This document shows positions 13,746-42,970 of a stretch of DNA of 57,666 bases, piece after piece. Below the pieces are notes generated by a model. That model ran no database searches and had not been told where the DNA came from. It worked only from the letters and a program-made list of their open reading frames with translations. This stretch comes from Prorocentrum cordatum. Lineage: Eukaryota. A program made the position numbers and the translations under genes. Location of the stretch: assembly GCA_963575745.1 (NCBI GenBank), contig CAUYUJ010000005.1, positions 62,001 to 119,666 of the forward strand, given 5' to 3'. Each line of letters starts with the position of its first letter. Position 1 is the first letter of the stretch.

Positions 13746-13850
13746 CTCGGGCGTGTACTGAACTCGGCGACCACCTGCGCTTCCTTGCCCCTGCGCCCTG
13801 CGGGTTCAGTCCGCGCCGGAGCGTCGGCCGCCCCCGCCGGGAGCCACGTG

Positions 13851-14012
13851 TTAGGAGGGAAAAAAACACACAGACACAATTAATCGTCGATCCCCAGGAA
13901 ATATGGGAATATATGGGAAGTGGGGGGGAAGACAAAAACCGAGAAAGTATGAGAAAATATGGGGGATCCTTTTATTTGTGTGTATTTATTTGTGTGTCCC
14001 GGGGCCCCTTCA
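13851..14012. mobile_element. MITE family C copy 2
   Basis: 5-bp TSD acgtg (13846-13850, 14013-14017). Confidence 0.85.
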
Positions 14013-14492: not shown

Positions 14493-14687
14493 TCGGGCCG
14501 GGCGAAAGGGGGGGATTGGGAAAGGGGGGGTTACGAAGTTTGCTGCATGCAGCCGGCTTCGGCCCCACCGAGGGGCCCATTCCTCGATGCATGGACGCCT
14601 CCGGCGCCGGGAGGCGCCCGGAAAATCACCCGCGTGAGCTGATTCTCAACCCCCCCCTTTGCTATCCCCCCCTTTCGCCCCACCCGA
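14493..14687. mobile_element. MITE family K copy 1
   Basis: TIR tcgggccgggcgaaagggg...cccctttcgccccacccga; homologous to 41527-41719, including the downstream flank. Confidence 0.8.
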
Positions 14688-15129: not shown

Positions 15130-15320
15130 TACTCCAGATGTCGTAATATAAGGGAGGGGGGCTTCATTTCGGGGGGGGTCTCTTCCAGGCCATCTTGGAG
15201 GGCCTGGGGGGGGGGTCTGGGGACGATGTTTTGGAGGGTTCTCCCGGGGGGGGGGGGGGTCTAAAACTTCTCGTCTGGGAGGGTTGAGACCCCCTCCCTT
15301 TTATTGCGAAATCTGGGGTA
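15130..15320. mobile_element. MITE family E copy 1
   Basis: TIR tactccagat..cgtaa / ttgcgaaatctggggta; homologous to 29138-29323. Confidence 0.75.
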
Positions 15321-15632
15321 TCCACGGATCGGGGAATCTATCCCCTGGATCGTGAGGCCAATGCCGCCCGACGTGGTGGCGGAGCGCGCCGTCCCTGGAC
15401 GGACACCGGGTGCGTCGCGAACCAGGCGTCGCCAATCCATGCTTGCGCTCCCTCGAATGTCTGCCCGTCCTCGCGGGCAGGAGAGTGCCCCAAAAAGTCC
15501 ACCGGTTCCCCGGGGAATTTGGGGGCGGTGCTGTGGCAGCTGCGGAGGCGGACATGTCCCTGCGGCGCCCCCCGGAGCAATGTTCGTGGTGGGGTGGGGA
15601 GAGGCTCAGGGGTGATGAATCGATCCCCTTAT

Positions 15633-15799
15633 TCACCACCCACCAAACCACCCCAACCCAACCCGAAGGCCTCAATTTGCCCTCCATTTCCAGTGGGGGG
15701 GGTCGGGGAACATCGAAAAAACGCGTATGGAACCCATACCCCCCCCCAACCCGAAATCCGGGTCTTCGGGTTGGGTTGGGGTGGTCTGGTAGGCAGTCA
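15633..15799. mobile_element. MITE family A copy 2
   Basis: Perfect 5-bp TSD cttat (15628-15632, 15800-15804); TIRs as in copy 1. Confidence 0.9.
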
Positions 15800-15919
15800 C
15801 TTATCGCCCATTGATCGCCGATAGGAGCCCGACAAGCGTTAGGGGATAGGGAATAGGCTCAGGAACAGAGATGTTCACCGGTAAACTGGTACATTCTCTG
15901 GTGAACCGATACGTTCCTT

Positions 15920-16130
15920 GGTTGAAGCTTTTGAATCTTCTGAAGCTCTTGAAGCTTCCTAGGAGCTTCTGATTCTTCCCAGGAGTTCTTGAGGACCGTC
16001 TGAGGAGCTCCTGAGGATCTCCTGAGGAGCTCCTAAGGAGCTTCTCAGAAGCTCCTGGAGGGCTCCTCAGGAGCTCCATAGGAGTTTCTTGGAAGCTCCT
16101 GGAGAGCTCTTCAGGAGGTTTTTGGAGCAT
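15920..16130. repeat. Minisatellite of aggagctcct-type palindromic units
   Basis: Repeated gaagcttc/ggagctcc motifs. Confidence 0.65.
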
Positions 16131-16219
16131 CTGAGTGGAGAGACGAGAGATGGGATGATAGGGGATTGGGAGGAGGATAATTCGAGCGGATTCTAGCGGA
16201 ATGTTCAGTAAACGGACCG

Positions 16220-16430
16220 CACGCCGCGCACATTCGATTTAAACAGTTGCAAGAGTTTCGCGGATTAAGGGTGGGTGGTTCGCAACATGTGGTGCTCGCC
16301 GTAGTGCCGCGCACATTCGTTTAATCAATTTGCAAGAGTTTCACGGGTTGAGGGCGTTTTTTTTAAACATGTTGTTTTCGCTTTTGCGCCGCGCATGTGC
16401 GCTTCAAACTTTTGCAAGAGTTTCATTGGT
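16220..16430 (-). repeat. ~84-bp satellite units (reverse orientation)
   Basis: cgccgcgcacattcg is the reverse complement of the unit core at 47361-47726. Confidence 0.7.
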
Positions 16431-16639
16431 TCTCAAGTCTACATCGCGTTCAAGGTTCCACAAACAGTCCGGCTGCCTCCACATGCAGTCCACCATATTT
16501 AGCTGTTTCTACGTCATCTCCTGATTCGTATCTCTTCTGTTCTGTTCAACTTGACAGTTGGGAACATGGCGAAACGAGCATGAAAGGCAACGGGATCTAC
16601 ACCGGATTAGTAGGAAGACCGTAAGGACAACACACACGA

Positions 16640-19600: not shown

Positions 19601-21130
19601 GCACTATATTGCTATGCGGCATTATCCTGTTGCTCCGCGCCGGAGAGCTGGCGCCGCGCTCAGATTAGCATGTGGTTCAGTCTGGGGATGCGTCTCTGCC
19701 GCGATACTGCAGGCCGATGTGCGCTATCCCGCTGATGTATGCATTGTTTTCTCGTTTGCTGTCCAAGCGCCGGGGGCCGATCCTCGACGGGCCCCGCCCC
19801 CCAGGAAAGTAGGGTTCCGGAGACGTCATTGCACTGGCGGCCACTTGTTTGCGTTCGCAATCTGTCGGGGGAAAGGAAGGGGGCGCCGCGTTCCGATTTT
19901 CGCCGCCGTTCTGGGTTTCAGGAAAGATTTCGCCACAGGCCCCCACGATGCACTCTGGAAGGCCTTAGAGCACAATCTGCGCCATCACCGCGCATCAACG
20001 TGTTTGCCAACTTGCTCGCTGGCCAAACAGCCGCGGTGCAGGCGGATGCGCCGAGCGGGAAATTCTGCATTGCGCGGGGGGCGGATCGCGGGGGTCCACT
20101 GAGCTCGCTGTTACTCAATCGTGTTTCGCAGTTCTTCTTCCAGAATCCACCCGAAGTGGTCTGAGCGCACATGCGGGATTCAGTTATTATGTGTCAGGCG
20201 CGCGCGACTTACTAATGTCAGATTTGGTGTTGATGTGATGATCATTGGTGGTTAAATGACGCTGGTATAACGGATGGAACCAGACGTCTAGGGCGTCGCT
20301 TTGACGACGGGCCTGGAAATCCACCCAGACAAAACATAATTACATTACACAACCTGTTCGACTGGAAGCCGGTGGCTGCGCCGGAATTCGCCGTCGTTAA
20401 CGACGCGGAGATCGAAGTTTAGATTTTCGCTGGGGCGCAGAAGTACCTTGACAGACAGTTTACCTTCCGCGACCACGCAGAGGTAGAGATAGGGTCGCGG
20501 ACCAGGGCTGCCTGGAATAAGTTTGGCTTACTTCAGCGGGGGCTCGCAGCCAAGGCGTGCTCGGCGAATGGCTGCGCTTGTTCAGCGACGTCATTGGTGC
20601 ATCTATGCTGCGCGCGCGCTTCTTGGGCGGTCGCGGCCGGGCTGGAGGGCAAAGTTCAGGCAGCCCAGCGCCGAATGTTGCGCGCGATTGCGAATGCGCC
20701 GCGACGCCAGCGCGCTGGCGCGGCGAACGACGAGGACAATGCCGACGCAGTGTCCGCAGAGAGCGGCGCCGATGCCTGCATCGAGCCATGGCACCAGTGG
20801 ATCAAAAACGCAACGCGTGTGGTGGAACGCAGTATTTCAAGCTGGCAACGAGAATTGGGGCGCAACGCACAGAGGACGGAAATTGTGCTGGGTGTCTAGA
20901 CTGGTGCACGGCAAACGCAGATAGAGTTGGAATGTTGCGATGTGGGACCCACCCCGCTGCCGCGCGCGTGCTCGGGGGCCGCCGCGACGGCCGGGGATGC
21001 GCTGGTTCGACGACATGTGTCAAACAGTGCGATGTATTCATGCAGATGGGGTCCTGGAGCCGCTTGCCGCTTGCCCGCGATGGCGAGCTGTTGGGGCGCG
21101 TGGAATCCACGTGCGTTCGCGCGCCCCATT
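16640..21130 (+). pseudogene. Decayed LINE with ORF1 remnant, APE and RT (RTE-like RT)
   Basis: ORF1-like coiled coil QDLCNRVVELEGEV and IVLGFDG; APE remnants HGVGILLHSRW, RQFDYVV, LGSCHRAL; RT remnant RGADRGGPLSSLLLN; many stops and frameshifts. Confidence 0.75.
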
Positions 21131-21139
21131 GAGGCCCCT

Positions 21140-21660
21140 CGTATCTCCCATTCCGGCTCCCTGCTGTCCGATCCCAGCCCCCATTTTTCCGAGCCGGGTC
21201 TCGATTTTTTTGTTTTAGCGCTCATTTCATCGATTCTCGGTTGTCAGTTTTCCGATTGTAGGGCCCGTCACTCCAGCCCCGGCTGGCAATTTTCCGGCGC
21301 CAGTTCCTCGTATCTTTCCGCTCTTGGCTCCCAATTGTCCGACTCCAGCTCCCATCTCCCCGACTCCAGCTTCCTTTTCTCCGGCTCCAGCTCCCGAGTT
21401 TCCGACTCCGACGCCCGTCTGTCCGATTGTGGCCCCCAATTTTCCGACCCCGACTACCAATTTTCCGAATCCGGCGCCCGTGTCTCCGATTCCAGCTCCC
21501 AGCTTCCCCATTTTGGCGCCCGTCTCTCCGACTCGGCCCCCAACCTTCCGACTCCGATTGCTGATATTCCGGATCCAGCGCCCGTCTCTCCGACTCCAGC
21601 TCCCAACCTTCCGACTCAGCTCCCAATTTTCCGACTTCGGTCCCGGGTTTCTATCCGTCT
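21140..21660. repeat. Minisatellite of tccgactccagctccc / tccggcgcccgtct units
   Basis: ~21-bp degenerate tandem units. Confidence 0.8.
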
Positions 21661-21959
21661 TTCGTATCTACTTTTCCGATTCTGGCGCGGAGTGTGCAAT
21701 CCGACCCCGTCTGAAACCATGGGCGGCTGGCTTGCTTCCCTCTTCCTCCCTTCCCCTAGCAGCGCGATGCTGTTGTTTCGCGCGCCAGTTCTTTCCGGCC
21801 GCTCGGCAGTGCCCCAGCGGTGCAAGACGCGGGCCGATTTCCGAGTTCAGAACTGCGGCGCCGCGGCGCACCCGCCCTCCCTTACGCGGGGTGCCCTCCT
21901 GGGTGACATCGGCGCCGTTCTGCTCCGTTCCGCTCCGCTTCAGTGGTTCTCATGGTTCA

Positions 21960-22290
21960 CGTGCTTGACAATGGTTCGGAACGATTCAGGATTGTGAGGT
22001 TGCAGCGGCTACGTTGATTCGCGATTCGAGAGGTTGCAGAGGTGGGAACGGCGTTCTGGCGCGATTCAGGCTCGTCACGACGCGACAGTCAGGTTGATTC
22101 GTGGCGTTGAGGTCCTTAGAATGGTGTTTTGGCACGCTTCAGGATTTTCATAGGCGTGCCCCCCAACGGGGCATTTCCGTCAGTGGTGACGAGCTGTTGT
22201 AGGGGCCTATGAGGAGGGGGCTTGGAGGGGTGGTGGATTGCTTGAATTGCAACATCGTTGCCGAGTCTAGGGTTTTCATTGGTCCTCTCC
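21960..22290 (-). repeat. Dispersed repeat family J
   Basis: Reverse complement of 47006-47340 and 53045-53330 (gccccgttggg, cctgaa[a/g]cgtgcc, aacctgactgt). Confidence 0.75.
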
Positions 22291-22299
22291 CTCTCCCCT

Positions 22300-25200
22300 C
22301 TTCCCCCCCCCAGCGCCAGCTGGCGCGGGGGCGGGGCGCCTGGCCAGCCTGCGCCGGGGGCGCCGCGCGGGCGCCGCTGCCGCGCCTTGCGGGGGCGCGC
22401 GGGCTGCCGAGCGGCGGGCCGCGCGGCGGCGGCGCCGCGCGGCCCCGCTGGAGGCGCGGGCCCAACGGGCCTGGCCGCCGCGAACCGCTGAGGGCCGAGG
22501 GCCGAGCGACTAGCTGGCGCGTGGGGCAGAGCCGCGGACGCTCGCGCGCAGCTGGCCGAGGCGCAAGCGGACGCCCGGGCGGAGCTGGCCGAGGCGCGGG
22601 CGGCGCGGGCCGTGCTCCAGCGGGCGGGGGCCGCGTGCCAGGAGGCCACCGAGGCGGCGGGGGAGGCCGAGCGCACGGGGGCCGCCCCCGAAGCGCAGCA
22701 CGACGCGGGCGCAGAGAAGCAGGGTGGGGGGGCGGGCAAGAGCGCAGCCGCGGCGTCCGCCCCATGCCCTGAGCAGGGGCCATGTGAAAATGGGGGCATG
22801 CCCGGGGGGGGGGCCAAGGCGCCGCGGGCGTCGCCCGACGAGGAGAAGCGCGGGCCCGGGGCGACGGCCGCGGAGCGCGGCGAGAGCGCCGACCGCTCCG
22901 AGAGCGCGCCGCGTGCGCGCGGAGCGGAGGCCACTTGGGTGGCGGCGGGGGAAGAGCCGAGGCGTCGCCAACGATGTGGACGTGCTCCGAGTACAGTGCG
23001 TTCACCTCGCAGGCCGAGTGGGCGCCAGCCTTGAGGAGCTTGGGCCGGCAGCGGGCCTCGCCGAGCTGGCGGCCGACCTGGGGCGGAGGGCTGCTGAGGA
23101 GGTGGCTGCAGATCCTGGTGGTGAGCCACCTGCTGCCGGCGGGGGCGATGCCGCACCGCCTGGAGGCCCAGGGCAGCCAGCAGCTGCCCCAGGGGGAGCG
23201 CCAGGCTTGCTGCTGCAGGACTTCAGCCTCGTGGTGCCTTGGGGCGCTGGGGCCGAGGTTCGAGATGACAGCTGCGGATGTCCAGCCAGGCTGCCGTAAT
23301 TATGGAGTCGCGGATGTGAGCCAGTTCAAGTTGACGAGGCTACGGACACGGATGTGAGGCCCCCTGCGCCACAGGAGGGCATTGGTAATGGCGAGAGGGC
23401 CCGCCGTCCTGGCGCAGCAGCACCCGGGGCATGCCCCTTTCGCCCCTCGGAGTCCCAGCGTCGGCGAGCACGCCTATGAGAGGGCTCGTCGCGGTGCTGG
23501 CAGACGCTGGTAAAGAGCAGCTGCTTCGGCGCCGTGGGCGCGAGAAGCATGGCGAGGAGTGGCAGGTGGCCATTCTCAACTTCAACGCCTTCAGCAATTT
23601 CGACAAGTGCATGGAGGTGAAGGAGTTGCAGTGCTGCGACGCGGTGCTGTTCCAGGAGACCAGGCTGGCAGCTGGCAGGAGCAGCGACGCGGAGGCCCTG
23701 GTGCGAGCAGCAGGTTGGAGAGGCCGGTGTACAGCAGCCATCGCCTCCGAGGCAGGTGGTCTTGACATTGGAGGGTTGATGACGATGGTCAAGGAGATGT
23801 ACGGTTTGGCGGAGCTGAAGGTGAAGCAACCAGCAGTGGTGGTGCCAGGCAGGATTCGCGTGGCCTGCTACCCGGGGGTGTGCAAGAGCGGCGTCCTGCT
23901 CATCAACGTCTACCTGGAGGCTGGCGTTGGGCTGAACCAGACCAACAGGAGTGCGCTGCTCGATATGGCGAGATGTCTCAGGCAGTTCAGGAGGCCGTAC
24001 ATCGCAGGAGGCGGCTTCAACGTGGAGTACGACGAGCTGGTGCAGAGCCACCTGCTGCAGTGCTTCGACGTGGAGGTCGCGAGGCCAGCGGTGGCGACGT
24101 GCGCCGCCTCGGGCAGGATCATCGACTTCTTACTGATCTCGCGGGAGATGCAGGTAGTCAGTGTGCAGGTGGTGTCTGGCTCGCCTGTGTTTCCCCATTC
24201 GCCAGTCATCCTGAAGGTCAAGGCTCTTGGAGTACGGCCGTGGTTGCAGATCGCGCAGGCGCCCAAGCTCTTCCCCGTTGTGAGGCCGTCAGGCTGCTGC
24301 AGGGCTGATCAGGGTGCCAAGTGGGTTGAAGTTGGGCAATCAGTGCAGCGAATGCTTGATGTGGTGCAAGGTGATGCGACAGGAGACGTCTGCATAGCGC
24401 GTCCGCCCACGGCGTTGACGGTGGCCTTCCGCAGGTTCCTCGCGGCAGCGGAGCAAGACTTGTTTAGTGGAAATTGTTCAGGTCGAAGGAGATGCGCATC
24501 GGTGCGTCGGGCGCTCCGAACGTGTGGTCGCCAAGTGGGTGCGGCAGACGGCAGTCAAATGGATGCGGCCGCCAAGGATCACGGCTGCGGCGGCGTGTTT
24601 GGCCAGGGTGGCCAATTGCCTGAGGGCGGCGGCGCGGGGCCAGGGGCCCAAGGGGAAGGCGATGGCGCTGAGGGGCCTTCCCCGTGAGGCGCGAGGCGCG
24701 CCGCAGCGACTGTGGGCCATGGCTGATCAGGAGCAGGCCTCCAGCGCCTGCCCCGCCGCGGGCTTGGCTGGAGCCGCGCTGCGGTGGTGGGAGGTAGTGC
24801 TGGAAGAAGAGGTTAGCCGTGCGCCCGTTGTGGCGTTGCGCTGGATAGCCAAGCAGGCGCGCGCTGATGCTCATGCCTTGGCGCAGCGGGACCTTGAAGA
24901 TAGAGGGCGGCAGTTCGACGAGTGGGCCCAGCTGCAGCTGCGAGGAGGAGCAGGAGGGCTACGCGCCATCACGCGTGTGCCCATCGGTTGGCAGGACAGC
25001 CCAGCTGATCAGGAGCAGGCGAGGGGCGCGCCAGCCAGCCATGAGGTGGAGGTACGCCAGCTGGAAGAGGATCGGCGGAGGCTTTGGAGAGTCGAGTGCG
25101 AGCAGGTCAGCGCGCGCTGGCCCGAGGACCTGGGCGAGCGCCCTCCCGGTCCCTCGGTGGGGGAGCTGAGGCAGTGTCTGGGGGCCTTCCGACACGCCGC

Positions 25201-25660
25201 AGCAGCTTCCTTCGAGGGCATTCGGCCGAGGCAGTTGCTGGAGCTGTGCGATGGGGCGCTGGAGACGCTGACCGACATCCCGATGAAGTTGGAAAGAGCA
25301 GTGGAGTGGCCCAGCCTCACCACCAAGGTGCGTTTCCTTGCGAAGCCGCTTGGGGGGGGCACGACCGATCGCGATCGTCGTGGTGTTGGCGAGGGTGCAG
25401 GCTCGCCTCGGGAGGTCCACCGCGCTGGGTTGGGGGGGGCGCAACGGCAGGCCCTTCTTCTGGGCCGCCCGAGGCCGTGGCTGTGAAAAGGGCAGTCTGG
25501 GAGCTGGTGGCGGAGGCGAGTGGGCGACGGCCAACGGGCGCCAGCAGCGAGACCCAGAAGCGTGGGTGTCGGTGCTCGTGATGCTCGACCTGCTGAAGGC
25601 ATGCGAGCAAGTGCGGCACCACCACCTCGTCGAGGCAGCGTGGTTTGTCAAGCTTTTTGG
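22300..25660 (+). pseudogene. Decayed LINE: coiled-coil ORF1 remnant, APE (23431-24480) and start of RT
   Basis: ARAQLAEAQADARAELAEAR coiled coil; APE motifs ILNFN, LFQETRL, INVYL, IAGGGFN, IIDFLL, FPHSPV; RT motifs FLAKPLGG, RPIAI, MLDLLKACEQVRH; frameshifted. Confidence 0.85.
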
Positions 25661-25809
25661 GGGAATGTCCAGGGGTCTCTGGCTGAGGGGACTTCGGATG
25701 GCGGTGACTTCCAAGGGTGAATTTTCGTGGACGGTAGTTGGTGTAAGTCGGTCATCAATGAATTGTGTCGGGCTGGCTGGGGGCTTGCTTAAATCTGATC
25801 GGGTCTGAA

Positions 25810-26450
25810 GCTCTTGAGCTGTGCTATGGGCCCGTGAGGGACCATGTCCCATCAGTCGTCTCAGGTTGGGGAGTTTTGAGCTTCGCTGCTGCGGGCGCCA
25901 ATCCCGGAGGCGATGGAGGTACCCCTGAATTCGAACGGTTCCGTCGTGTTCGGAACAGCTTCGCTGATTCCGCCGCCAAGCTTGGGGCCCAAACCCATCC
26001 CACTCCCGACCCAGACACCCAAACTGTAGTTAACAGGTTTGTGACGCTCTTCAGAGCGGTCGCCCAGATCGCCATGAATGTTCTGCTTTTGTGGCCGCGT
26101 CTGGTCTTCTCACAGGTAGAATGCGTCAAACGGCCCCAGGGGCCTGGAGAGGCCAGCCACGATTGGGTCTGGGCTTCAACTTTTTGGCATTGCGCGGCTC
26201 GTTCGAAAAGGTAAGAGGGGGGAGTCTCCGCCACCCCCCAGGCAGATGTGTTCAGCCACCTCGCCTGGATCTAGAGCTTTTGGCAGCCAACAACCACCAG
26301 TGCGCACTCCTGGGCTGTGCGGATGTTTCGTTGTTGTGCATTTGCGTGAAATTCCAGAATTGCAGCACAGGCGGCAGGCTCGTCCATCTCGCCACCCCAT
26401 GCTCCCGTGGACAGGGGGTGCTGGCCGCACGAACTGGAGATACGTTTGTG
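25810..26450 (+). pseudogene. Retroelement RNase H C-terminus plus Cys/His-rich tail remnant
   Basis: RNSFADSAAKLGA resembles the RNase H GN.xAD.xAK motif; followed by HDWVW..WHC and CICVK..HLATPC. Confidence 0.6.
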
Positions 26451-27103
26451 TGGGGCATCACCTGCATTTCTCTCTATATATAGATATATACGCATACGGA
26501 AGAACGTACAGTTCCTCTCCTCACCGTGGACAGCTGGCTCGGCCTTGCTTGCGCATGTAGCCGCTCCTGGGTTCGTTGCCGCGACTTTTGTGGATGGTCG
26601 GGCGGGTGGGAGTGTTGGGGATGGGAGCGAAGCATCGTCTCAGCCTTTCGAGGGTGCGGCCGTGTCCTCCTCTCCTGCCTCCTCCCTTCGTGGGACAAAA
26701 TCTCTCAGGGATACCCTCAGGGTGATCGAGGCTTCCAGGAGGGAGGATGGTGAGCAGCCCTTCGTTCGGCCTCATGGTTTTTCGAATTGAGACAGGCCAG
26801 GCTGAGGCCGTCAGAAGAGTCCCCTCGAAAGGGAAATGCAACCCGAAATGTAAACATACACTCTTCCTCCTCCTCCTCTTCTTCCATTGTTTTTCCTTGT
26901 GGATGCAATCGGCCCTCCTCCGCCTCGTTCTCTTCTTCCTTCTCCTCCTCCCTCCTCCTCTTCCTCCTCCTCGCCCCGCCTCGCGCGGAGGTGTCCTCCC
27001 GCGCGGAAGGGTCCCCCCGCACGGATGGGGGAGGGCGGGCGGTCGAAGGAGGAAGAGGAGGAGGAGGAGGAGCAGGAGGAGGAGGAGGTGGAGGAGGAGG
27101 AGC

Positions 27104-27850
<747 letters not shown>

Positions 27851-28228
27851 GGGTTTTTCTTCCTGTGCCTCTCGTTTTTCTTGCCCATGCATCTACACGG
27901 TCCTCAGTCTTAGCCTGGGGAGGAGGGTCGGCATCACCCAAACACTCTTAGATTTTTCTTCGGCCTCTGAAGGGCGATGCGCGCGCTCAGAAATCTTCCA
28001 GTACATACTCGTCGGCGGGCTCTTTCTGGCCATACCGCCTGGAGATCGACACGCTACGAGAGGCTTGTGCTAGATATTGATTTCGGGCATGCGCACAGTA
28101 CTAGTCTGTCCTCCTTCGTCCGAGCGGAGGACGCTCGGCCGCCCGGCGCGGCCAGGCATCGTCCCGGCAGCGCCCCGATGGCGACAGAGCCTTCCGCGCC
28201 CTCCCCGGCCGGGCCCTCCCCCTGCCAG

Positions 28229-28267
28229 GACCGGAGGGCGCAGCTGCAGCGCTTCGTGCCGCACATG
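28229..28267 (+). CDS. MYND-GT7 gene exon 3
   Basis: DRRAQLQRFVPHM continues PFRDQRPLQ; acceptor ccctgccag|G; 3' end uncertain (ATG|GC assumed). Confidence 0.8.
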
Positions 28268-28609
28268 GCCGGCCGGTCGCTCGGCCTCCTCGCCGTGGGG
28301 CCAGGGGGCGCCCTCCAGGAAGGCATACACATCGCTCCTGGGCCCAGGATGGGCATGGCCAGGGATAGTGGACGGGTCTAGATATTGTCGCCCTACTCCT
28401 TGCCCTCGCTCTGTTGCTGCTGCTCCTCCTCCTCTTCCTTCGTGAGACGGTGCTGTGCTCCCACACGTGCTAGCAAGTAGCCCTGTTGCAGCCATACAGG
28501 TCTGCCGCCCAGCGATGTAGGGTAGCCTGCCGGATTCCCGAACTTCTCGTCGCCCATGGGGTTTGCTTGCTGGCTTCAAGCAGCGGCGAAGCGTCCTGGC
28601 TCGCCTATA

Positions 28610-31988: not shown

Positions 31989-32294
31989 TAGGGGGCCACA
32001 TGCGAAACCTACCCCTACCCCCCTGCCCCTACCCCCCTACCCCTGCCCCTCTGCGTGAACCCCACCCTCCCCCTGAGAAATCGTGGGGGGTAGGGGTAGG
32101 GTTCGCATGTGTCGGGCGAAGAGAACTATGCACATGCACCGGTCCTGGCCAGGCCCATCCTTGGCCCCAGGATCGGTGCATATGCCTTCGTGGCCAAGGC
32201 AGGAGGGCGTATGCACCGATCTTGGGCTCAGGGTTGGGCCTGGCCAGAATCGGTGTATGTGCATAGTTCTCTTTCCTCTAATGTGGCCGCCTGA
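31989..32294. mobile_element. Family F copy 2 interrupted by a nested MITE (32112-32280)
   Basis: Nested element tcgggcgaagagaactatgcacat...atgtgcatagttctctttcctcta with perfect TSD atgtg (32107-32111, 32281-32285), splitting the family F right TIR. Confidence 0.85.
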
Positions 32295-32988
32295 TTGTCC
32301 CGCCTGCGCGACCCGCCCGGGGTCCGCACGCCCGGTCCGCCCGCTGGGGTGGGCCAGCTCGCTCGCGTGCAAGCTCGCGCGCCCGCCATAGCTCCCGGCC
32401 TGCCCCCCGCCCGCTGAGGGCCCTGCCGCGCGCCCCGCCCGTTGGGGTCCGCAGACGGACGACGACGACGACGACGACGTCGACGACGACGACGACGACG
32501 ACGACGTCGACGACGACGACGACGACGACGACGACGTCGACGACGACGATGACGTCGACGGCGGCGTCGGCGACGGTGCGAACGCCGCCATGGAAGACGA
32601 CCGCGGCGACACCAACCGCCGACGAAGACGACCGCCTGCGAAGACGACCGCCGACGAGGAAGAGCACTGGCGCAGCCGACGGGGGACGGGGACGACCGCC
32701 GGCGAGGACGACCTGTGCCCCTCCTTCTTCCCGCTGCTCTTGCCGCTGTCGCTCCTCCCCCTCTCCCCGCTTTGTTGTCCTACTGGTCATTCTGTTGCCC
32801 TCTCCTTCCATCCCATCCTATTCCATTCCCTTCACCATACTTATCCCACGCCATGCCATCCCACTCCACCCCACCCCACCCCATCCCACGCCATCTCATC
32901 CCACCCAACCCTTCCCTTCCGTCCTCCCCCCCCTCCCCTGGGACCCTCTGGCCCGCAAGGGGGGGCCAGCGACCGTGGGCACTTGGAG

Positions 32989-33030
32989 GAATTCTTGTCC
33001 CTCATTCCCGGTTGTGAAGCCGTGCTCGTG
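32989..33030 (+). CDS. MYND-GT7 gene exon 4
   Basis: EFLSLIPGCEAVLV bridges FVPHM and VVEQ as expected in GT7; donor GTG|GT; 5' end uncertain. Confidence 0.75.
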
Positions 33031-33034
33031 GTGG

Positions 33035-33232
33035 TCGGGGGCGGCAACGAGGGGGGTGATGACTAGGTGGGGTGGATATCATGGCGTGGGCCATGATGAT
33101 ATTTCCTCAGATTTCATGGCGCATCTTTTTAATTCATTACGTCCCTGGTCCACCCCCCTGGGCCGCGCACATGCCGCCGGTCATGATTTGCATCCCCCCC
33201 TCTCTGGACCCCCCCCTCTTGGCAGCCCCCGA
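33035..33232. mobile_element. Introner: MITE that constitutes intron 4
   Basis: TIR tcgggggcggcaacgagggggg vs reverse complement tcgggggctgccaagagggggg; TSD ggtgg at 33030-33034 and 33233-33237; intron 33031-33233. Confidence 0.92.
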
Positions 33233-33233
33233 G

Positions 33234-33368
33234 GTGGTGGAGCAGACGCAGGATGGGCAGAAGTTTAATCGGGGCCAGCTGCTCAACGTGGGGCTCCGGC
33301 TGGCGCAGGGGGCCTTGCCTGGAATCACGTCATTCATCACGCACGATGTGGACCTGCTGCCCTCTATG
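33234..33368 (+). CDS. MYND-GT7 gene exon 5 (FNRG and DxD motifs)
   Basis: VVEQTQDGQKFNRGQLLNVG...ITHDVDLLPSM; donor ATG|GA. Confidence 0.92.
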
Positions 33369-33447
33369 GACACGTGGAGGAGGGGGAGGAGGCGAACTGG
33401 GAGGAGGAAGAGAGGGAAGAGGGAGCCGATTATGGGAGAGGAGGCGA

Positions 33448-33448
33448 A

Positions 33449-33518
<70 letters not shown>

Positions 33519-33720
33519 CTGATGCTCATGCTGATGCTGATGATGATGATGCTTACGATTATGATTCTGATGTTGATGGCGATGATGATGGTGCTGATGA
33601 TGGTGGTGATGATGATGGTGATGATGCTGATGATGATAACTATGATGCTGATGATGATGACGATGCTGATGATGATGATGGCGATAGTGATGGTGAGGGT
33701 GAGGGTAAGGGTAATAGTGT

Positions 33721-33780
<60 letters not shown>

Positions 33781-33901
33781 CGGCGATGATGATGATGATG
33801 ATGATGATGCTGGTGATGATGATGATGATGATGATTCTGATGATGATGATGATGGTGGTGATCATGATGATGATGATGATGTTGATGACGATGACGATGA
33901 C

Positions 33902-33986
<85 letters not shown>

Positions 33987-33987
33987 T

Positions 33988-34022
<35 letters not shown>

Positions 34023-34362
34023 CTGATGATGATGGTGATGACGAGGATGACGATGACGACGATGGTGATGACGACAACGGCGTCGATGACGACGACGATG
34101 AGGAGGAGGTGGAGGAGGAGGAGGTGGAGTAGGAGGGGGAGGAGGAGGAGGACGAGGAGGAGGAGGAAAGAGGGATGTTGACGATCATGATGACGATGAT
34201 GAGTCTGATGATGCTGCTGATGACAATGATGATGCTAATACGGACGCTGATGATGCTGCGGATGGTGAATTCGATGATGATGCTTATGATGATGCCATTA
34301 ATGATGCTGCTGATGATGATGGTAAAGTTTCGCGATGGTGGTATGATGATGCTGATTATGAC

Positions 34363-34435
<73 letters not shown>

Positions 34436-34466
34436 CTGATCATGCTGGTGATGATGATGCTGATGC

Positions 34467-34498
<32 letters not shown>

Positions 34499-35132
34499 GT
34501 GATGATGGTCGTGATGATGATGCTCCTGATGATGATAATCATGTGGCTGACGATGCTCATGGTGATGGTGATGGTGATGGTGGTGGTGGTGATGCTTGTG
34601 GTGATTATTGTAACGATGATTGTGGTGGTGGTCGTGATGAGGACGTCGATGCTGATGATCATGATGTGATGGTTTTGGTGATGGTGGTGGTGATGCTGAG
34701 GACTATCATCAGTGATAGAAGTAGTATCAGTAAGATCTCTATGCTGATTGTTACTACTTCGATATATAACCATATTGCCAAGGCCTTCTGCCAGTGCGTC
34801 CGATCCGGGGCGCTCGGGATGATGATGCTGATGATGATGGTGATGATGATGATGATGATTATGCTGATGCTGATGCTGATGCTGCTGATGATGATGATGA
34901 TGATGATGATGATGAGGGAAGTGACGATGATACTGATGATGACAATGCTGATGCTGATGCTGATGCTGATGCTGATGCTGATGCTGCTGCTGCTGATGCT
35001 GCTGCTGCTGAGGTTGATGATGCTGCTGATGCTGCTGCTGCTGCTGATGATGATGATGATGGTGATGATTCTGATGATGATGGTGATGATGATGATGATG
35101 AGGAGGAGGAACATGAGGAGGAGGAGGAGGAC

Positions 35133-35190
<58 letters not shown>

Positions 35191-35350
35191 GATGATGATG
35201 ATGATGATGATGCTGATGATGATGATGATGCTGCTGATGATGATGATGATGCTGATGATGATGCTGATGATGATGATGATGCTGATGATGATGCTGATGA
35301 TGATGCTGATGATGCTGATGATATGATGCTGATGCTGATGATGATGATTC

Positions 35351-35400
<50 letters not shown>

Positions 35401-35449
35401 CTCATGATGCTGATGATGATGATGATAATTATGATGACGATGATGATGC

Positions 35450-35508
<59 letters not shown>
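33448..35508 (+). repeat. Degenerate (GAT)n array
   Basis: Direct inspection. Confidence 0.97.
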
Positions 35509-35574
35509 TCCTCATACTTTTTGGCTTTGAGCTGAGCGCGTGGCAGTGCTGGGGGGGGCCATCACCGAGCCCCC

Positions 35575-36060
35575 ATGGTGCCTGCACACGGGGCGGGGAT
35601 GCCAACACTGGACCCCCGGTGCGACAACTGGGGGGGAGGTGCTGGCGCCGGAGGGGGGTGCCGGCACCGGGGGGAGTGCCGGCACCGGTTGCACCTGGGG
35701 GGGTGCCGGCACCAGGGGGGTGCCGGCGCCGGGGGGGGTGCGGCACGGGGGAGGGTTGCCAGCACTAGCGGAAGGGGCCGGCACTGGAGGGCGGGGGGGG
35801 CGGCACTGGAGGGGGGTGCCGGCAACAGGGGGGGGTTGCCCGCACCGGGGAGGGTGTCGGCATTGGGCACGGAAGGGGGCCTGCACGGGGAGGCCAGCAC
35901 TGGGGGCGGGTCGCCTGGGAGGGGGGTTGCCAGCACCGGGGGTGGGGGGGGCGGCACCGCCAGCGGGTGTGGGCACCCCGGCGGTGGGTGCTGGCACCAG
36001 TGGGGGGGGCGACTGGTACCGGGGGGGTTGCCGGCACCGGCGAGGCCGGCACCGCGGGGT
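35575..36060. repeat. G-rich minisatellite with palindromic gtgccggcac core
   Basis: About 20 degenerate units. Confidence 0.85.
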
Positions 36061-36104
36061 GGAGCAGCCCACGCTCCCAGAAACTCACACGCCGGATCGG
36101 CGTA

Positions 36105-36742
<638 letters not shown>

Positions 36743-37942
36743 CGAATCTGGGCACATTCGTATCTGCCCTGTCCTTGTCCTCTTCTTCCTCCGTCGCCTC
36801 CCTTCTTTCCTCCCTCTCCCTCCCCTTGCGTGCCTGGCAGGTGCTCCACTGTACGCCCGGCACGCGCAGCCCTCTGGAGCCCCCGCGATTGCACCGGATT
36901 CGGCCGGGGCCCCAGGTCGGCGACTACGATCGGTGCGGTTACGCCGGGGTGCGGTTTGCGAGTTGCTTTGTGGCGGCCTTTCCGGGGCCTTTGCGCGAGA
37001 CAATGTCACTTTGGACTTTGGTCACCTGTCGGTATACTTCCAGGCGCAGCCGGCCATCCTGGGTGGACGCCGGCGTGTCGCGCATCTGCTGGCAGACCCG
37101 CGGCGCCGTCCGCACTGAGGCTGAGCGCAGCAAAAAGAAGAAAAAAAACCTCGATGTGTGCTCCACTATACTAGAAGGGGCAACAGTGTCATGTGATTCG
37201 GTCGCATTGAGTGACAGTGTCATCCGTTTCCCCGGGGCGGGAGGGGCAGATATGACGGGAGGCAAGCCGCACCCTTCGCAAACCGCACCTCTTGTGGTCG
37301 CCGGTCAGGACTACAGCCAGGTGGTTCCAATTTTGCGAAGGGCGGGACTAATTGCACCTTCACGGGGACCTGCGTATCGACTGGGAGAGCAGGCTTTCGG
37401 CCATCAGTTGGGGAGCCGGCAGTTTTCATCTTCGCCAGAGCTTTCAAGGACAAATTGATGATGATGCTGCTGATGATGATGATGTTGATGATGATGATGA
37501 TTTTGATGATGATGATGATGTCGATTATGACGCCCATGCTGATTTGGCTGATGATGATGGTGATTCTGTTGCTGCTGGTAGTGCTGATGCTGTGATTGTG
37601 ATTGCAGTATGATGGTGATGGCGGTGGTGATGATGATGCTGATGACGCTGATGATGCTGATGGGGATTAGGATGACGATGATGCTGCTTATGATGATTAT
37701 GATGATAACGGTGATATTGAATCCGAAGGTGATATGAAGATGCTGATAACGCTGCCGATGATGATTGTGATGGTGATGCTGCTGACGATGGCGACGATGG
37801 TGACGATGGTGACGATATGATGGTGGTGAAGGAGGTGATGATGATGATTATGGTGGTGGCGGTGGCGATGAGTACGTCTCTGATCATGATAATGGGGTGA
37901 TGGTTTTGGTGACGATGGTGATGGTGGTGAGAAAGAGCGTGT

Positions 37943-39526
37943 TCTACCGCTGCTGGCGGAAAACCGGGGGGGGTCACTGGGGGTTCCCAGCCCGTCCCCC
38001 CCCCCTCGAAAACCGGGGGCGGGTCACTACCGGTTCGAACTCCTCCCCCCCCCCCAGTCCATCATGAAGAGGGAGGGGGGGTCATTACTGGTTCGAACCC
38101 CGCCCCCTCCCTGGAAAACCGTGGGGGGGGTCACTACCGGCTCGGACCCCCCCACCCCCCCCTTCGCCGCCAGCAAACGATTCCCGCTCCTGGGGACAGG
38201 TGGACAATGGTGGGGATGCTGGGACAGTGGTGGGAACGGTGTTTGTGGGGACAGTGGTGCGGGGACAGTGGGACAGAGGAACGGACAGTGGTGGGGACAG
38301 TGGTGGGGGGACAGCGGGACAGTTGTGGGGACAGTGGGACTGTGGTGGGGACGGTAGTGGTGGGGACAGTGGTGAAGGCGGTGGTGAGGACAGTGGTGGG
38401 ACAGTAGTACAGTGGGGAAAGTGGCGAGGACAGTGGGGACAGTGGGACAGTGATGGGGACGGTGGGGACGGTGGGACAGCATAGTGGGACAGCGGCGGGG
38501 ACAGTGGGACAGTGGTGGACCGTGGGGACAGTGGGGAGAGTGGGGCCGTGGTGGGACAATGGTGGGGAGACTGGGGACGGTGAGACGCTGGTGGGGACGC
38601 TGGTGGGGACAGCGGGGACAATGGTGGCAACAGTGGGGACTATGGGACAATGGTGGGGACGGTGGTGGGGACAGTGATGTGGGGACTGGGACTGTGTTGG
38701 AAACAGTGGGACAGTGGAGGGTGCAGTGGTAGTGGGGACAGTGGTGAGGGTGGTGGCGAGGACGGCGGTGGGACAATAGGACAGGGGTACAGTGTGAAAG
38801 GTGGTGGGGACAGTGGGGGCAGTGGTGGGAACGGTGGGACAACTCAGTGTGACAGCGGCGGGGACAGTGGGACAGTGGGACAGTGGGGACAGTGGGACAG
38901 TGATGGGGACCGTGGAGAAAGTGGGGAGAGTGGAACCGTGGTGGGAACACTGGTGGGGACAGTGGGGACAGTGCGACAGTGGTGGGGACACCGGTGGGGA
39001 CAGCGGGGACGGTGATGGGAACAGTGGGGACAGTGGTGGTGAGGACAGTGGTGCTGGGGACAGCAGTGGGGGATGTGGTGCGGACGGTGGTAGGGACCCG
39101 GGAGTCGTTTGCTGGCGGTGAGCGTGGGGGGGGGCGGGGGGGGGTTTCGAACCAGTAGTGACCCCCCCGGGTTTTCTGGAGAAGGGAGGGGGGAGGGGTT
39201 CGAATTGGTAGTGATCCCCCCGGTTTTTTGAAGGGGGGGACTCGAACTCGTAGTGACCACACCACCCCCGGTTTTCTGGAGGGGGGGGGAGGGGTTCGAA
39301 CCGGTATACCTCCACCCGGTTTTCCGGAGGGGGGTTGGGGGGTCGAGCCTGTAGTGACCCCTCCCGGTTTTCCGGAGGGGGTGGGGGGTTATAGGGAAGG
39401 GGGGGGTTTTGCCGGGGGGAAGGCGGGGGGGGGGTCCAGCAGGGGGGCGAGATTTTCGGAGGGGGGGGGGGACCCCAGGTTCCGGAGGAAGAGGGGGGGA
39501 ATTTTCCACAGTAAAGCGGCGGTGGA
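37943..39526. mobile_element. Foldback-like element with repeated subterminal motifs and a (GTGGGGACA)n core
   Basis: Termini tctaccgctgct vs reverse complement tccaccgccgct; left arm repeats aaaaccgggggggtcactac.ggttcgaac, inverted in the right arm; inner 19/20 inverted repeat at 38167-38186 and 39099-39118. Confidence 0.8.
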
Positions 39527-39619
39527 TCATGATGATGTTTATCATGAATGGTGTTTATCATGAGTGGTACAAGTGATACCAGTGAGACCTCTAGAATGTC
39601 GCTCAAGAATGTCACTACT

Positions 39620-40385
<766 letters not shown>

Positions 40386-40403
40386 CCCCCCGCTGACTCT
40401 CAG

Positions 40404-40688
40404 GACATGCGCCCCGCGTATGCCAAGCCTCCACCCCCGGGGACCGCAGTGCACCTGGCGTCCGTCTGGCCCAAGTACACTTACCCAGGCTTTCTTGGCG
40501 GCGTGCTGTCCTTTCGGCCAGAGGACTTCGAGCGGGCCAATGGTTACCCCAATAATTACTGGGGCTGGGGTTTGGAGGACGACCAGCTCGCTCTGCGCAT
40601 GTCGAAGTGTAACATTCGAACGATCCGGCTGCGCGAAGGGATTGGCACCTTCATTGACTTAGACGAGATGAACATGAAGGGCGTTCTG
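40404..40688 (+). CDS. MYND-GT7 gene exon 6 (catalytic WGWGxEDD)
   Basis: VHLASVWPKYTYPGFLGGV...NGYPNNYWGWGLEDD; acceptor ctctcag|G; donor CTG|GA in phase 0. Confidence 0.93.
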
Positions 40689-41052
40689 GATCCGGGGAGC
40701 CGCAGAATGGGGTAAGTGTGGAGGAGGTGGGGAGGGGATAATGAGTGGGCGATGGTTCGGCGGAGCGCTTGTATCGGCTACACGTAAGAGTGACCTTTCC
40801 GCCGGAGTGACTTTTGGTGCGCGGCTTTCGGGGGGACGCGGGGGGCGGGGGGGAAACCAGAGCACGCAGGCCGCTACGGTCGTACCGCACGCGACGATTG
40901 GCAGGTCGCGCACCACAGGCCAGTCTTGCCTGGGGCGACGTCTTGCGTGCAGCCGAGATGGGAGGGGAGGATGAGTGGGCCATGATTCGGCGGAGCGCTT
41001 GCTGGGGCGGGGGGGGCGGGGAGGGCAACTCTCACGGCTCGACTCTCCCCAG

Positions 41053-41178
41053 GACCGCGGGCAGGGGGAAGAGGTGCGGCGGCACTTGCCCTGGTACAAC
41101 GCGCAGCTCTTCCAAAAGGGCGCACTCTTGATCGACGGGGACTGGCAGGTCAACGGGCTCGGCGACCTTGACTACGAG
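41053..41178 (+). CDS. MYND-GT7 gene exon 7
   Basis: DRGQGEEVRRHLPWYNAQ...VNGLGDLDYE matches the GT7 DGLxxLxY motif; acceptor ctccccag|G, donor GAG|GT. Confidence 0.85.
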
Positions 41179-41318
41179 GTCTCGGGCGAGGGAGCTTTGG
41201 CCAGAGCCCTGAAGACTTCAGAGGCCCGACCCATCGGCCCTGTCAGTGGATGTCGATCCCCTGCCAGACCGGGGGGCCGTGTTCTGCAAGGTTGGGGCCA
41301 CTCATATGTCGACTAGAC

Positions 41319-41468
41319 GTAAGAGTGACCTTTCGCTGGAGTGACCTTTGGTGCGGGCACAGATACATCCCCAGATGGCTGAAAACGAAGCAGCAGCAGC
41401 TGCTTGCGCGCCCAGGTCTGACCCCCCCCGCGGCCCCCCAAAAGTCGCGCAGCAAAGGTCACTCTTAC
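41319..41468. repeat. Inverted-repeat-bounded segment
   Basis: Perfect 15-bp IR gtaagagtgaccttt / aaaggtcactcttac; the left arm recurs at ~40784. Confidence 0.65.
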
Positions 41469-41526
41469 CCAGGGCCACTCTGGCGTATAGCCGAATTTGC
41501 CTCTGGAGGCTCGGTGGGGCTGGCTG

Positions 41527-41719
41527 TCGGGCCGGGCGAAAGGGGGTATTGGGAAAGGGGGGGTTACGAAATTTGCAGCATGCAGCTGGTTTCGGCCTCA
41601 CCGAGGGGCCCATTCCTCGATACATAGCCGCCTCCGGCGCCGAGAGGCGCCGGGAAAATCAGCCACGTGAGCTGATTCTCACCCCCCCCTTTGCTATCCC
41701 CCCCTTTTGCCCGACCCGA
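41527..41719. mobile_element. MITE family K copy 2
   Basis: TIRs plus 5-bp TSD ggctg (41522-41526, 41720-41724). Confidence 0.85.
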
Positions 41720-41960
41720 GGCTGGTCTGTTTCCCTCTCCCCGTAGGTCGTGGATAAGAGGAGGAGGAGGAGGAGGAGGAGGAGGAGGAGGAGGAGGAGG
41801 AGGAGGAGGAGGTGGAGGGGAGGAGGAGGAGAGGAGGAGGAGGAGGAGGAGGAGAGGAGGAGGAGGAGGAGGAGGAGGAGGAGGAGGAGGAGGAGGAAGT
41901 GTGAGCGTCTGCCCTGCCCTCTCCTGAGCGTTTGTCCTGTCCTTCGTCCTCTCCCCGCAG

Positions 41961-42970
<1,010 letters not shown>

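What the first reader, a model, noticed from the sequence alone, without database searches (positions are those of the whole stretch)
33030..33237. An intron built entirely from a transposon: a T...A MITE plus its 5-bp TSD generates both splice sites
Seen: exon 4 ends ...CTCGTG|GTGG, followed by a 198-bp element with TIRs (tcggggg...cccccga), then G|GTGG starting exon 5. The TSD is GGTGG. The first copy supplies the G|GT donor. The element's terminal A plus the first G of the second copy form the AG acceptor. Splicing removes the element and exactly one TSD, restoring VLV-VVEQ. Established: Introner transposons that co-opt TSD bases as splice sites are known in algae and reported in dinoflagellates. 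Inference: this is a young, unexpanded Introner. The rule 'any T...A element landing in GG[T/C/A]NN becomes a seamless intron' would explain the G|GT, G|GC, G|GA donors and the AG|G acceptors seen here.
Basis: partly seen in the sequence, partly recalled or inferred. Interest (0 to 1): 0.88.

Follow-up and report, generated by a model that had tools for sequence, protein, structure and literature searches.

The report
Transposon-made intron in a dinoflagellate gene
A 203-base intron in a galactosyltransferase-like gene of a dinoflagellate consists of one small non-coding transposon plus one copy of the short duplication it made on insertion, a well-preserved example of a way of gaining introns already described in this group of algae.

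Summary
A 198-bp element (33035-33232) has 22-nt terminal inverted repeats (19 of 22 paired, first 8 perfect). It is flanked by GGTGG on both sides. Removing 33031-33233 (GT..AG, 203 nt) joins ...IPGCEAVLV to VVEQTQDGQKFNRG. That matches 26 dinoflagellate homologues with no gap. If the intron is retained, a TAG stop follows 12 codons in.

The element is not single-copy. In one public run, 4776 contig pieces lie on the element and none on the flanking exons. Two translated copies exist in a protein library. Related elements lie at 41527-41719 and 14493-14687 in the same gene.

The gene matches a Prorocentrum cordatum protein record. That record wrongly starts inside the element.

The mechanism is not new. 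Introner elements are reported in 2.4% of P. cordatum introns (PMC10666404, supplement). Splice sites drawn from target-site duplications are described in Symbiodinium and Polarella (preprint 10.1101/2020.10.14.339549).

Three things were not shown: splicing by RNA reads, other introns made by this family, and an empty site in relatives. No genome was held, and no run covered the exons.

Verdict: a real, new member of a known kind.

The parts
32989..33030 (+). Its 5' edge is uncertain: AG|G at 32987-32989, or AG|G at 32958-32960.
   Evidence: Translation. tblastn of homologues P0005, P0008 and P0009 to 32980-33021. Collinear with homologues.
33030..33034 (+). Left copy of the direct repeat GGTGG. 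G|GT gives the exon's last base and the 5' splice site.
33031..33233 (+). Inferred GT..AG intron of 203 nt: GTGG, then the 198-bp element, then G. Not a multiple of 3. In-frame TAG at 33064-33066 if retained.
   Evidence: Splicing is inferred from homology, not seen in RNA.
33035..33232 (+). MITE-like element of 198 bp with termini TCGGGGG...CCCCCGA and no transposase-sized ORF.
   Evidence: High copy number in run X1. Translated copies P0011 and P0012.
33035..33056 (+). Left terminal inverted repeat.
   Evidence: I1: 22 nt, 86% complementary.
33211..33232 (+). Right terminal inverted repeat. Its last base A is the A of the AG acceptor.
   Evidence: I1.
33233..33237 (+). Right copy of GGTGG. 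Its first G completes the AG acceptor. GTGG starts the downstream exon.
33234..33368 (+).
   Evidence: Pfam PF13733, E 3.4e-06. tblastn at 83-87% identity to homologues.
33081..33233 (+). Stretch of the element that the public protein record P0003 translates as its N-terminus (MAWAMMIFPQ...AAPE). This is a mis-annotation.
   Evidence: P0003 residues 1-97 match window 33081-33371 at 100%. Homologues have IPGC...VVVEQ here instead.
41527..41719 (+). Related 193-bp MITE with termini TCGGG...CCCGA, flanked by GGCTG, nested in intron 7 of the same gene.
   Evidence: 129 of 216 and 133 of 224 aligned columns identical to the 33035 element, z about 6 against shuffles.
14493..14687 (+). Copy of the 41527 element (178 of 195 columns identical) in intron 2. 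Its right flank is shared with the 41527 locus. The long form 14493-14800 is flanked by TCCATGA.

Best explanation
A non-autonomous DNA transposon (MITE) of about 198 bp inserted into the coding sequence of a beta-1,4-galactosyltransferase-like gene. The genome is most likely that of the dinoflagellate Prorocentrum cordatum. Insertion duplicated the target GGTGG.

The left repeat copy supplies G|GT, the exon's last base and the 5' splice site. The element's terminal A and the first G of the right copy form the AG acceptor. The spliceosome therefore removes the element and exactly one repeat copy, and the original reading frame is restored.

Shown: the anatomy, its improbability by chance, collinearity with homologues, and that the element is repeated elsewhere. 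Inferred: that the RNA is spliced at these sites, that insertion created the intron, and that the duplication is 5 nt rather than 4.
For: Anatomy:
- 22-nt TIRs lie exactly at the element ends.
- 5-nt direct repeats abut them.
- No such structure appears in 40 shuffles, against 8 in the window.

Coding logic:
- Removing 33031-33233 gives IPGCEAVLVVVEQTQDGQKFNRG.
- 26 of 30 homologous proteins examined read through this point with no insertion. Nine of them have the same 6-residue spacing between the conserved Cys and VEQ.
- Of the other four, two lack the FNR marker the script searched for, one starts downstream, and one is the window's own mis-annotated record.
- Retention gives a stop at the 12th codon and a frameshift.
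- Apart from one repeat copy, the intron holds nothing but the element. A pre-existing intron would have had no sequence of its own.

Repeated family:
- In run X1, 4776 contig pieces lie on 33020-33215. Of these, 485 are at least 99% alike, 1270 are 95-99%, 1861 are 90-95% and 1160 are under 90%.
- Depth is zero on 32684-33019 and 33244-33355.
- The pieces include non-repetitive parts of the element (table 8).
- Two proteins in a library of 1.84 billion are translations of other copies with different flanks.
- Related elements with the same termini lie at 41527 and 14493.

Precedent:
- Introner elements defined by an inverted repeat of 8-20 nt plus a direct repeat of 3-5 nt at intron ends are reported for 2.4% of P. 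cordatum introns (PMC10666404, passages and supplement 1).
- Dinoflagellate Introners take splice sites from the duplication, from the element, or across their boundary, and are spliced with median efficiency above 99% (preprint 10.1101/2020.10.14.339549, passages and section 4).
Against: - No RNA evidence. The four runs laid give zero depth on both exons, so no junction could be seen.
- The public gene model does not use this intron. It starts at an ATG inside the element.
- No second copy of this exact element lies in the 57.7-kb window.
- Searches of metagenome, prokaryote-genome and viral contig collections gave only chance matches or none.
- Run X1 is coded and does not cover the unique flanks, so it is not proven to be the same species.
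- Whether other copies form introns is unknown.
- The RNA fold of the intron is not more stable than shuffles (z -0.92), though the TIR stem appears in both the minimum-energy and the centroid structure.
Confidence: 0.8

Rival explanations
1. Same insertion, different bookkeeping. The duplication is 4 nt (GTGG, the published GHNN type) and the element is 199 bp, TCGGG...CCCGAG, carrying its own AG acceptor. This is the Symbiodinium-type Introner.
For: [quoted passage not shown] The 41527 copy can also be read as GCTG|...CCCGAG|GCTG.
Against: The inverted repeat is symmetric only with T...A termini. In both copies the base before the 4-mer is also G, as a 5-nt duplication predicts. The published type has CT at +5/+6; here it is TC.
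Confidence: 0.15
2. The element is a recent disruptive insertion that is not spliced out. The gene is then a pseudogene, or makes an N-terminally truncated protein from the ATG inside the element, as the public gene model has it.
For: The public model P0003 starts at 33081 inside the element. No RNA evidence for the junction. P. cordatum is described as having extensive genetic duplication (recalled from the genome paper, seen in no call), so redundant copies may decay.
Against: The boundaries are canonical GT..AG with the G|G..AG|G context seen at the gene's other introns. The upstream exons remain open and conserved: 13236-13280 is 87% identical to P0005, and 28220-28267 is 81% identical to P0009. 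P0003 also reads through intron 7 and misses the conserved last exon, so that model is unreliable. It would lack the first half of the Glyco_transf_7N domain (the match starts at profile position 84).
Confidence: 0.1
3. An ordinary old intron whose terminal inverted repeat and flanking repeat arose by chance, or through G-run and C-run composition.
For: The region is GC-rich with G and C runs. The whole-intron fold is no better than shuffles. G|G and AG|G are splice-consensus bases, so 2 of the 5 repeat positions are expected anyway.
Against: 0 of 40 shuffled windows contain any such structure. 0 of 300 end-shuffles reach the terminal inverted-repeat score. Thousands of contig pieces similar to the element, with sharp limits at its ends, exist in run X1.
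Confidence: 0.02

Closest known systems
Dinoflagellate Introners / Introner-like elements of Symbiodinium and Polarella glacialis (Roy et al.; preprint 10.1101/2020.10.14.339549, passages and section 4 read; the Curr Biol 2023 version was not seen)
   Same: A TIR element plus its target-site duplication makes up the whole intron. The 5' splice site comes from the upstream repeat copy, which begins G-H. The inverted repeat ends at the 3' splice site. Splice sites that span the element/duplication boundary and 5-nt duplications (class 12) are both described.
   Different: The species and order differ (Prorocentrales). The termini are TC...GA rather than CT...AG. The apparent 5-nt GGTGG arrangement, with the donor at repeat positions 2-3 and the acceptor formed by the terminal A plus repeat position 1, is not one of the arrangements quoted in the passages read. 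Family-wide intron creation is not shown here.
Introner elements (IE) of Amoebophrya and P. cordatum as defined by pattern (Farhat et al. PMC7789003; Dougan et al. PMC10666404)
   Same: It meets the operational definition: an inverted repeat of 8-20 nt and a direct repeat of 3-5 nt within 30 nt of the intron ends. IEs were reported in 2.4% of introns and 8,934 genes of P. cordatum.
   Different: Most Amoebophrya IEs sit in non-canonical introns; this one is GT-AG. This intron is not an intron in the public gene model, so it was presumably not among those counted (inference).
Introners of Aureococcus anophagefferens and Micromonas (Huff, Zilberman and Roy 2016; paper not held; known here only through the citing passages and recall)
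   Same: A DNA transposon creates an intron, with one splice site recruited from the target-site duplication.
   Different: There, one splice site is carried inside the element. Here the element contributes only its terminal A. The lineage differs, and so does the duplication length (8 nt is quoted for the Aureococcus-like pattern).
Miniature inverted-repeat transposable elements (MITEs)
   Same: Under 200 bp, with TIRs, a flanking duplication, no transposase ORF and high copy number.
   Different: The superfamily is unknown and no autonomous partner was identified. The terminal motif TCGGG...CCCGA was matched to no library.

Membership tests
MITE (non-autonomous TIR DNA transposon) | Terminal inverted repeats at both ends | tested here: met
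   22 nt, 19 of 22 paired, first 8 perfect.
MITE (non-autonomous TIR DNA transposon) | Target-site duplication directly abutting the termini | tested here: met
   GGTGG on both sides. The length is ambiguous between 5 and 4 nt.
MITE (non-autonomous TIR DNA transposon) | Short, with no transposase coding capacity | tested here: met
   198 bp. The longest ORF, 57 codons, matches only translated copies of itself among 1.84 billion proteins, plus one hit to a repeat-rich plant protein judged spurious.
MITE (non-autonomous TIR DNA transposon) | Many dispersed copies | tested here: met
   4776 contig pieces on the element and none on the flanks in run X1. The organism of X1 is coded and no copy number could be derived.
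Introner family (Roy, Gozashti, Huff sense) | The intron sequence is the transposon, with splice sites at or next to its ends or the duplication | tested here: met
Introner family (Roy, Gozashti, Huff sense) | Many introns in unrelated genes are copies of the same family | not testable with these tools
   No genome is held. The only related copies seen (41527, 14493) are nested inside larger introns.
Introner family (Roy, Gozashti, Huff sense) | Efficiently spliced from RNA | tested here: inconclusive
   None of the four runs laid covers the exons.
Introner family (Roy, Gozashti, Huff sense) | Intron absent at the orthologous site in relatives (a recent gain) | not testable with these tools
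   Only protein or transcript sequences of relatives were available. They are uninterrupted at the site, but proteins do not show intron positions.
Introner element by pattern (Farhat / Dougan definition) | Inverted repeat of 8-20 nt and direct repeat of 3-5 nt within 30 nt of each intron end | tested here: met
   The perfect 8-nt inverted repeat starts 5 nt from the donor and ends 1 nt before the intron's last base. The direct repeat is 5 nt.
Symbiodinium-type Introner (4-nt GHNN duplication, CT at +5/+6) | Tetramer GHNN repeated at the intron start and the downstream exon start | tested here: met
   GTGG and GTGG.
Symbiodinium-type Introner (4-nt GHNN duplication, CT at +5/+6) | CT (or CC) at intron positions +5/+6 | tested here: not met
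   Positions +5/+6 are TC.
Glycosyltransferase family 7 (beta-1,4-galactosyltransferase-like), the host gene | Glyco_transf_7N and 7C domains | tested here: met
   PF13733 on the downstream exon at E 3.4e-06, 27.1 bits against a cutoff of 27. All homologues carry PF13733 and PF02709.

The most novel reading that the evidence does not exclude
The TCGGG...CCCGA elements are a currently active Introner family of Prorocentrum with a 5-nt duplication. The element contributes nothing to splicing except its terminal A, so any insertion into GG[T/C/A]NN is born as a seamless intron. The same family also carries flanking intron sequence to new sites: the 14493 long form holds 25 of 27 bases of the 41527 locus's right flank. 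If copies in GGHNN exonic sites are enriched genome-wide, this family would explain much of the G|GH...AG|G boundary signature of this 4.75-Gb genome (size recalled, seen in no call).
Probability: 0.25. Interest if true: 0.5.

Novelty: new member of a known kind. Interest (0 to 1): 0.3.

Why it matters
This is a clean, nearly undecayed example of intron birth by transposon insertion in an order of dinoflagellates (Prorocentrales). There, introner elements have so far been reported only by a pattern count, with no family or mechanism described. A search of the held papers for 'Prorocentrum' with 'miniature inverted' found 0 papers.

It also has a practical lesson. The public gene model starts inside the element and reads through a later intron. 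Young transposon-made introns can therefore mislead gene prediction in these genomes and be missed by counts that depend on annotated introns.

It does not change the current picture of how dinoflagellate introns arise.

Tried and rejected
- Whole-genome search: no genome is held for this window.
- Sequencing-run search: my 5-kb query included long (GAT)n, (GAC)n and (GGA)n tracts. All 24 runs listed share only 0 to 0.23 of the words, mostly microsatellite words I believe.
- Reads laid: runs X2, X4 and X11 lie only on the GGA-rich stretch 33356-33420 (7, 18 and 332 pieces). No run covers either exon, so there is no junction evidence for or against splicing.
- Metagenome scan with a 20-mer from the element: 57 loci, none aligning beyond 37 nt. 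All are chance matches.
- Prokaryote-genome scan with a second 20-mer: 37 loci, none beyond 27 nt.
- Viral contigs: 0 matches.
- Word-indexed protein search with the element ORF: no candidate.
- Search for a same-species transcript-derived protein spanning the junction: apart from the mis-annotated P0003, the best hit is 76% identical.
- Earlier findings of this scan: nothing by sequence, place or words.
- Motif count of TCGGGGGCNGC in the window: 22 against 13.5 expected, not informative.
- The element at 32112-32280 shares only its first bases with this one (z 0.5 and 1.3) and was rejected as a relative.
- Terminal inverted repeats at the ends of introns 2, 5, 6 and 7 are not significant.
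- The Huff et al. 2016 paper is not held.

Full report
**What is in the sequence**

The window is GC-rich (48-70% in 2-kb bins) and full of microsatellites. At 33030-33237 the sequence reads CTCGTG|GTGG-TCGGGGGCGG...GCAGCCCCCGA-G|GTGGTGGAGCAG.
- The element 33035-33232 is 198 bp.
- Its two ends form a 22-nt inverted repeat with 19 of 22 positions complementary (pair I1). The first 8 are perfect.
- GGTGG directly abuts both ends (33030-33034 and 33233-33237).
- The interval 33031-33233 is 203 nt, begins GT and ends AG.

**Is it more than chance?**

- With the length fixed at 198 bp, 2 of 57,436 positions in the window have at least 19 of 22 terminal pairs and 510 have a 5-nt flanking repeat. 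Only this position has both.
- For lengths of 60-1000 bp, the window holds 8 structures with a 5-nt flanking repeat and at least 18 of 22 pairs. Two of them lie in microsatellites.
- 40 dinucleotide-preserving shuffles of the window held none.
- Among the five introns of this gene whose ends I could fix, only this one has a significant terminal inverted repeat. No shuffle of 300 reached its score. For the other four, 9-73% of shuffles did.

**The host gene and the case for an intron**

The downstream exon translates to VVEQTQDGQKFNRGQLLNVG...HDVDLLPSM. It matches Pfam Glyco_transf_7N at E 3.4e-06, just at the curated cutoff. The upstream exon ends ...EFLSLIPGCEAVLV.

A protein search found dinoflagellate homologues, most from transcriptomes or short contigs. 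I examined 30 proteins.
- 26 read straight through this point (...FLSSIPGC-x6-VEQSQDGRKFNRGQLLN...) with no insertion.
- Nine of those have the same six residues between the conserved Cys and VEQ as the spliced window sequence.
- Of the other four, two lack the FNR marker the script searched for, one starts downstream, and one is the window's own record.

If the 203 nt are retained, the frame shifts and a TAG (33064-33066) is reached at the 12th codon. The interval therefore has to be removed for the gene to encode a family-7 glycosyltransferase.

What has to be removed is exactly the element plus one repeat copy. An intron that existed before the insertion would have had no sequence of its own, so the insertion made the intron. 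That step is inference.

**Organism and annotation**

The best hit, P0003, is named 'unnamed protein product [Prorocentrum cordatum]'. It matches window 33081-33371, 40398-40697 and 41053-41313 at 100%, 98% and 100%.
- Its first 51 residues (MAWAMMIFPQ...AAPE) are a translation of the element itself.
- It lacks the conserved upstream exons, which tblastn finds at 13236-13280, 28220-28267 and 32980-33021.
- It also reads through intron 7 and misses the conserved last exon at 41961 (VVDKRGSGLVRHAVVHL).

The public model is therefore wrong at both ends, and this intron is not annotated as one.

**Is the element repeated?**

No second copy lies in the window at E below 0.01, and no whole genome is held.

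When four public runs were laid on 32600-33420 at 80% likeness or more, one run of a named but coded organism (X1) gave 4776 contig pieces.
- 485 were at least 99% alike, 1270 were 95-99%, 1861 were 90-95% and 1160 were under 90%.
- Depth sits on 33020-33215 and is zero on 32684-33019 and 33244-33355.
- The listed pieces cover non-repetitive parts of the element.
- The other three runs gave nothing on the element.

This is the signature of a high-copy dispersed repeat whose limits coincide with the inverted repeats. It does not prove that X1 is the same species, and it gives no copy number.

Independently, the element's 57-codon ORF was searched against 1.84 billion protein representatives.
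- Two proteins are translations of other copies with different flanks: P0011 (76% identity, E 1.5e-09) and P0012 (59%, E 6e-06).
- A third hit, to a repeat-rich plant protein, I judge spurious.

Within the window, a 193-bp element at 41527-41719 has the same termini (TCGGG...CCCGA), similar subterminal G and C runs and a flanking GGCTG. It aligns to the 33035 element at about 60% identity, z about 6 against shuffles. A copy 91% identical to that one lies at 14493-14687. Both sit inside larger introns of the same gene.

**Mechanism**

The most economical reading is a 5-nt duplication, GGTGG.
- The donor is G|GT, from repeat positions 1 and 2-3.
- The acceptor AG is the element's last base plus the first base of the right copy.

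A 4-nt reading is also possible: GTGG, with the element ending in AG. The symmetric T...A termini, and the extra matching G in both the 33035 and the 41527 copies, favour 5 nt.

The inverted repeats pair in both the minimum-energy and the centroid RNA fold, which brings the two splice sites together. The fold as a whole is not more stable than shuffles (z -0.92).

All five resolvable introns of this gene have G|GH...AG|GH with the same H, and further matching bases:

| Intron | Exon / intron start | Intron end / exon start |
|---|---|---|
| 2 | CAG / GAC | CAG / GAC |
| 4 | G / GTGG | G / GTGG |
| 5 | G / GACA | G / GACA |
| 6 | G / GAT | G / GAC |
| 7 | AG / GTC | AG / GTC |

This is the published signature of a GHNN duplication. 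The other four introns have no significant terminal inverted repeat. The long form of the 14493 copy is flanked by TCCATGA. Nothing here therefore shows a target preference, or that T...A elements made the other introns.

**Comparison with what is known**

- Dougan et al. [quoted passage not shown] They define these by inverted repeats of 8-20 nt and direct repeats of 3-5 nt within 30 nt of intron ends. They report them in 2.4% of introns and 8,934 genes.
- Farhat et al. (PMC7789003, passages) introduced that definition for Amoebophrya.
- The Roy et al. preprint (10.1101/2020.10.14.339549; passages and section 4 read) describes Symbiodinium introns with inverted repeats ending at the 3' splice site. 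These are flanked by 4-nt direct repeats, one of which is the 5' splice site.
- The same preprint describes 15 Polarella classes with duplications of 3-8 nt. There the splice sites come from the duplication, from the element, or across their boundary. Median splicing efficiency is above 99%.
- Gozashti et al. 2025 (PMC12130899, passages) do not mention Prorocentrum.
- A search of the held papers for 'Prorocentrum' with 'miniature inverted' found none.

This is therefore a new, well-preserved member of a known kind. It is not a new mechanism.

**What remains open**

Three things are untested:
- splicing in RNA;
- the share of family copies that are introns;
- an empty site in relatives.

The collections I could search for further DNA copies gave only chance matches or none.

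Noticed in passing
window 33081-33371, 41179-41316 and 41961 onward: The public protein record P0003 (named Prorocentrum cordatum) starts at an ATG inside the transposon. It then reads through intron 7 to a stop at 41314-41316. It misses at least three upstream exons and the conserved last exon (VVDKRGSGLVRHAVVHL, from 41961).
   Followed up: yes
window 14493-14800 and 41527-41746: Two copies of a 193-195-bp MITE are 91% identical (178 of 195 columns). They also share 25 of 27 bases to the right of the right TIR and a (GGA)n tract, while their left flanks are unrelated (17 of 53). The shared right flank looks like a diverged copy of this gene's own intron-7 acceptor. The long form 14493-14800 ends in CCCGA and is flanked by TCCATGA. 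This may be mobilisation of a MITE together with its flank through an alternative right end.
   Followed up: partly
window 41720-41761 versus 41935-41975: Intron 7 holds a duplicate of its own polypyrimidine tract, AG acceptor and the first 15 bases of exon 8 (GTCGTGGATAAGAGG). It lies directly after the 41527 MITE and is followed by a (GGA)n tract.
   Followed up: no
window 13278-28228, 33369-40403, 40689-41052 and 41179-41960: Every resolvable intron of the gene has the same base after the G at the donor and after the acceptor, plus further matching bases (GAC/GAC, GACA/GACA, GAT/GAC, GTC/GTC). Donors are GA, GT, GA, GA and GT. Introns 2 and 5 are 15 kb and 7 kb and are filled with microsatellites.
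   Followed up: partly
window 28267-28270 and 32960-32989: The junction between the exons at 28220 and 32989 could not be placed with a GT, GC or GA donor and an AG acceptor while keeping the homologues' spacing (HMA|EFLS). Either a one-residue deletion (HM|EFLS, GC donor) or a 10-residue insertion (acceptor at 32959) is needed.
   Followed up: no
window 32112-32280, 55678-55830, 55392-55463 and 2785-2990: Four further short elements with a 5-nt flanking direct repeat and 18-20 of 22 terminal inverted-repeat matches. Their flanking repeats are ATGTG, GAGGA, GGATC and TTGGA. They are unrelated in sequence to the 33035 element.
   Followed up: no
proteins P0011 and P0012: The only two translated copies of the element in the protein library carry a EukProt label of a green alga (Pyramimonas sp. 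CCMP1952). That name is absent from the NCBI taxonomy copy. This may be a mislabelled or contaminated data set, or the element may occur outside dinoflagellates.
   Followed up: no
window 32455-32560, 33440-36000 and 41760-41900: Very long (GAC)n, (GAT)n and (GGA)n tracts lie inside the introns. They account for the strong GC skew of 34-44 kb and swamped the sequencing-run search.
   Followed up: no
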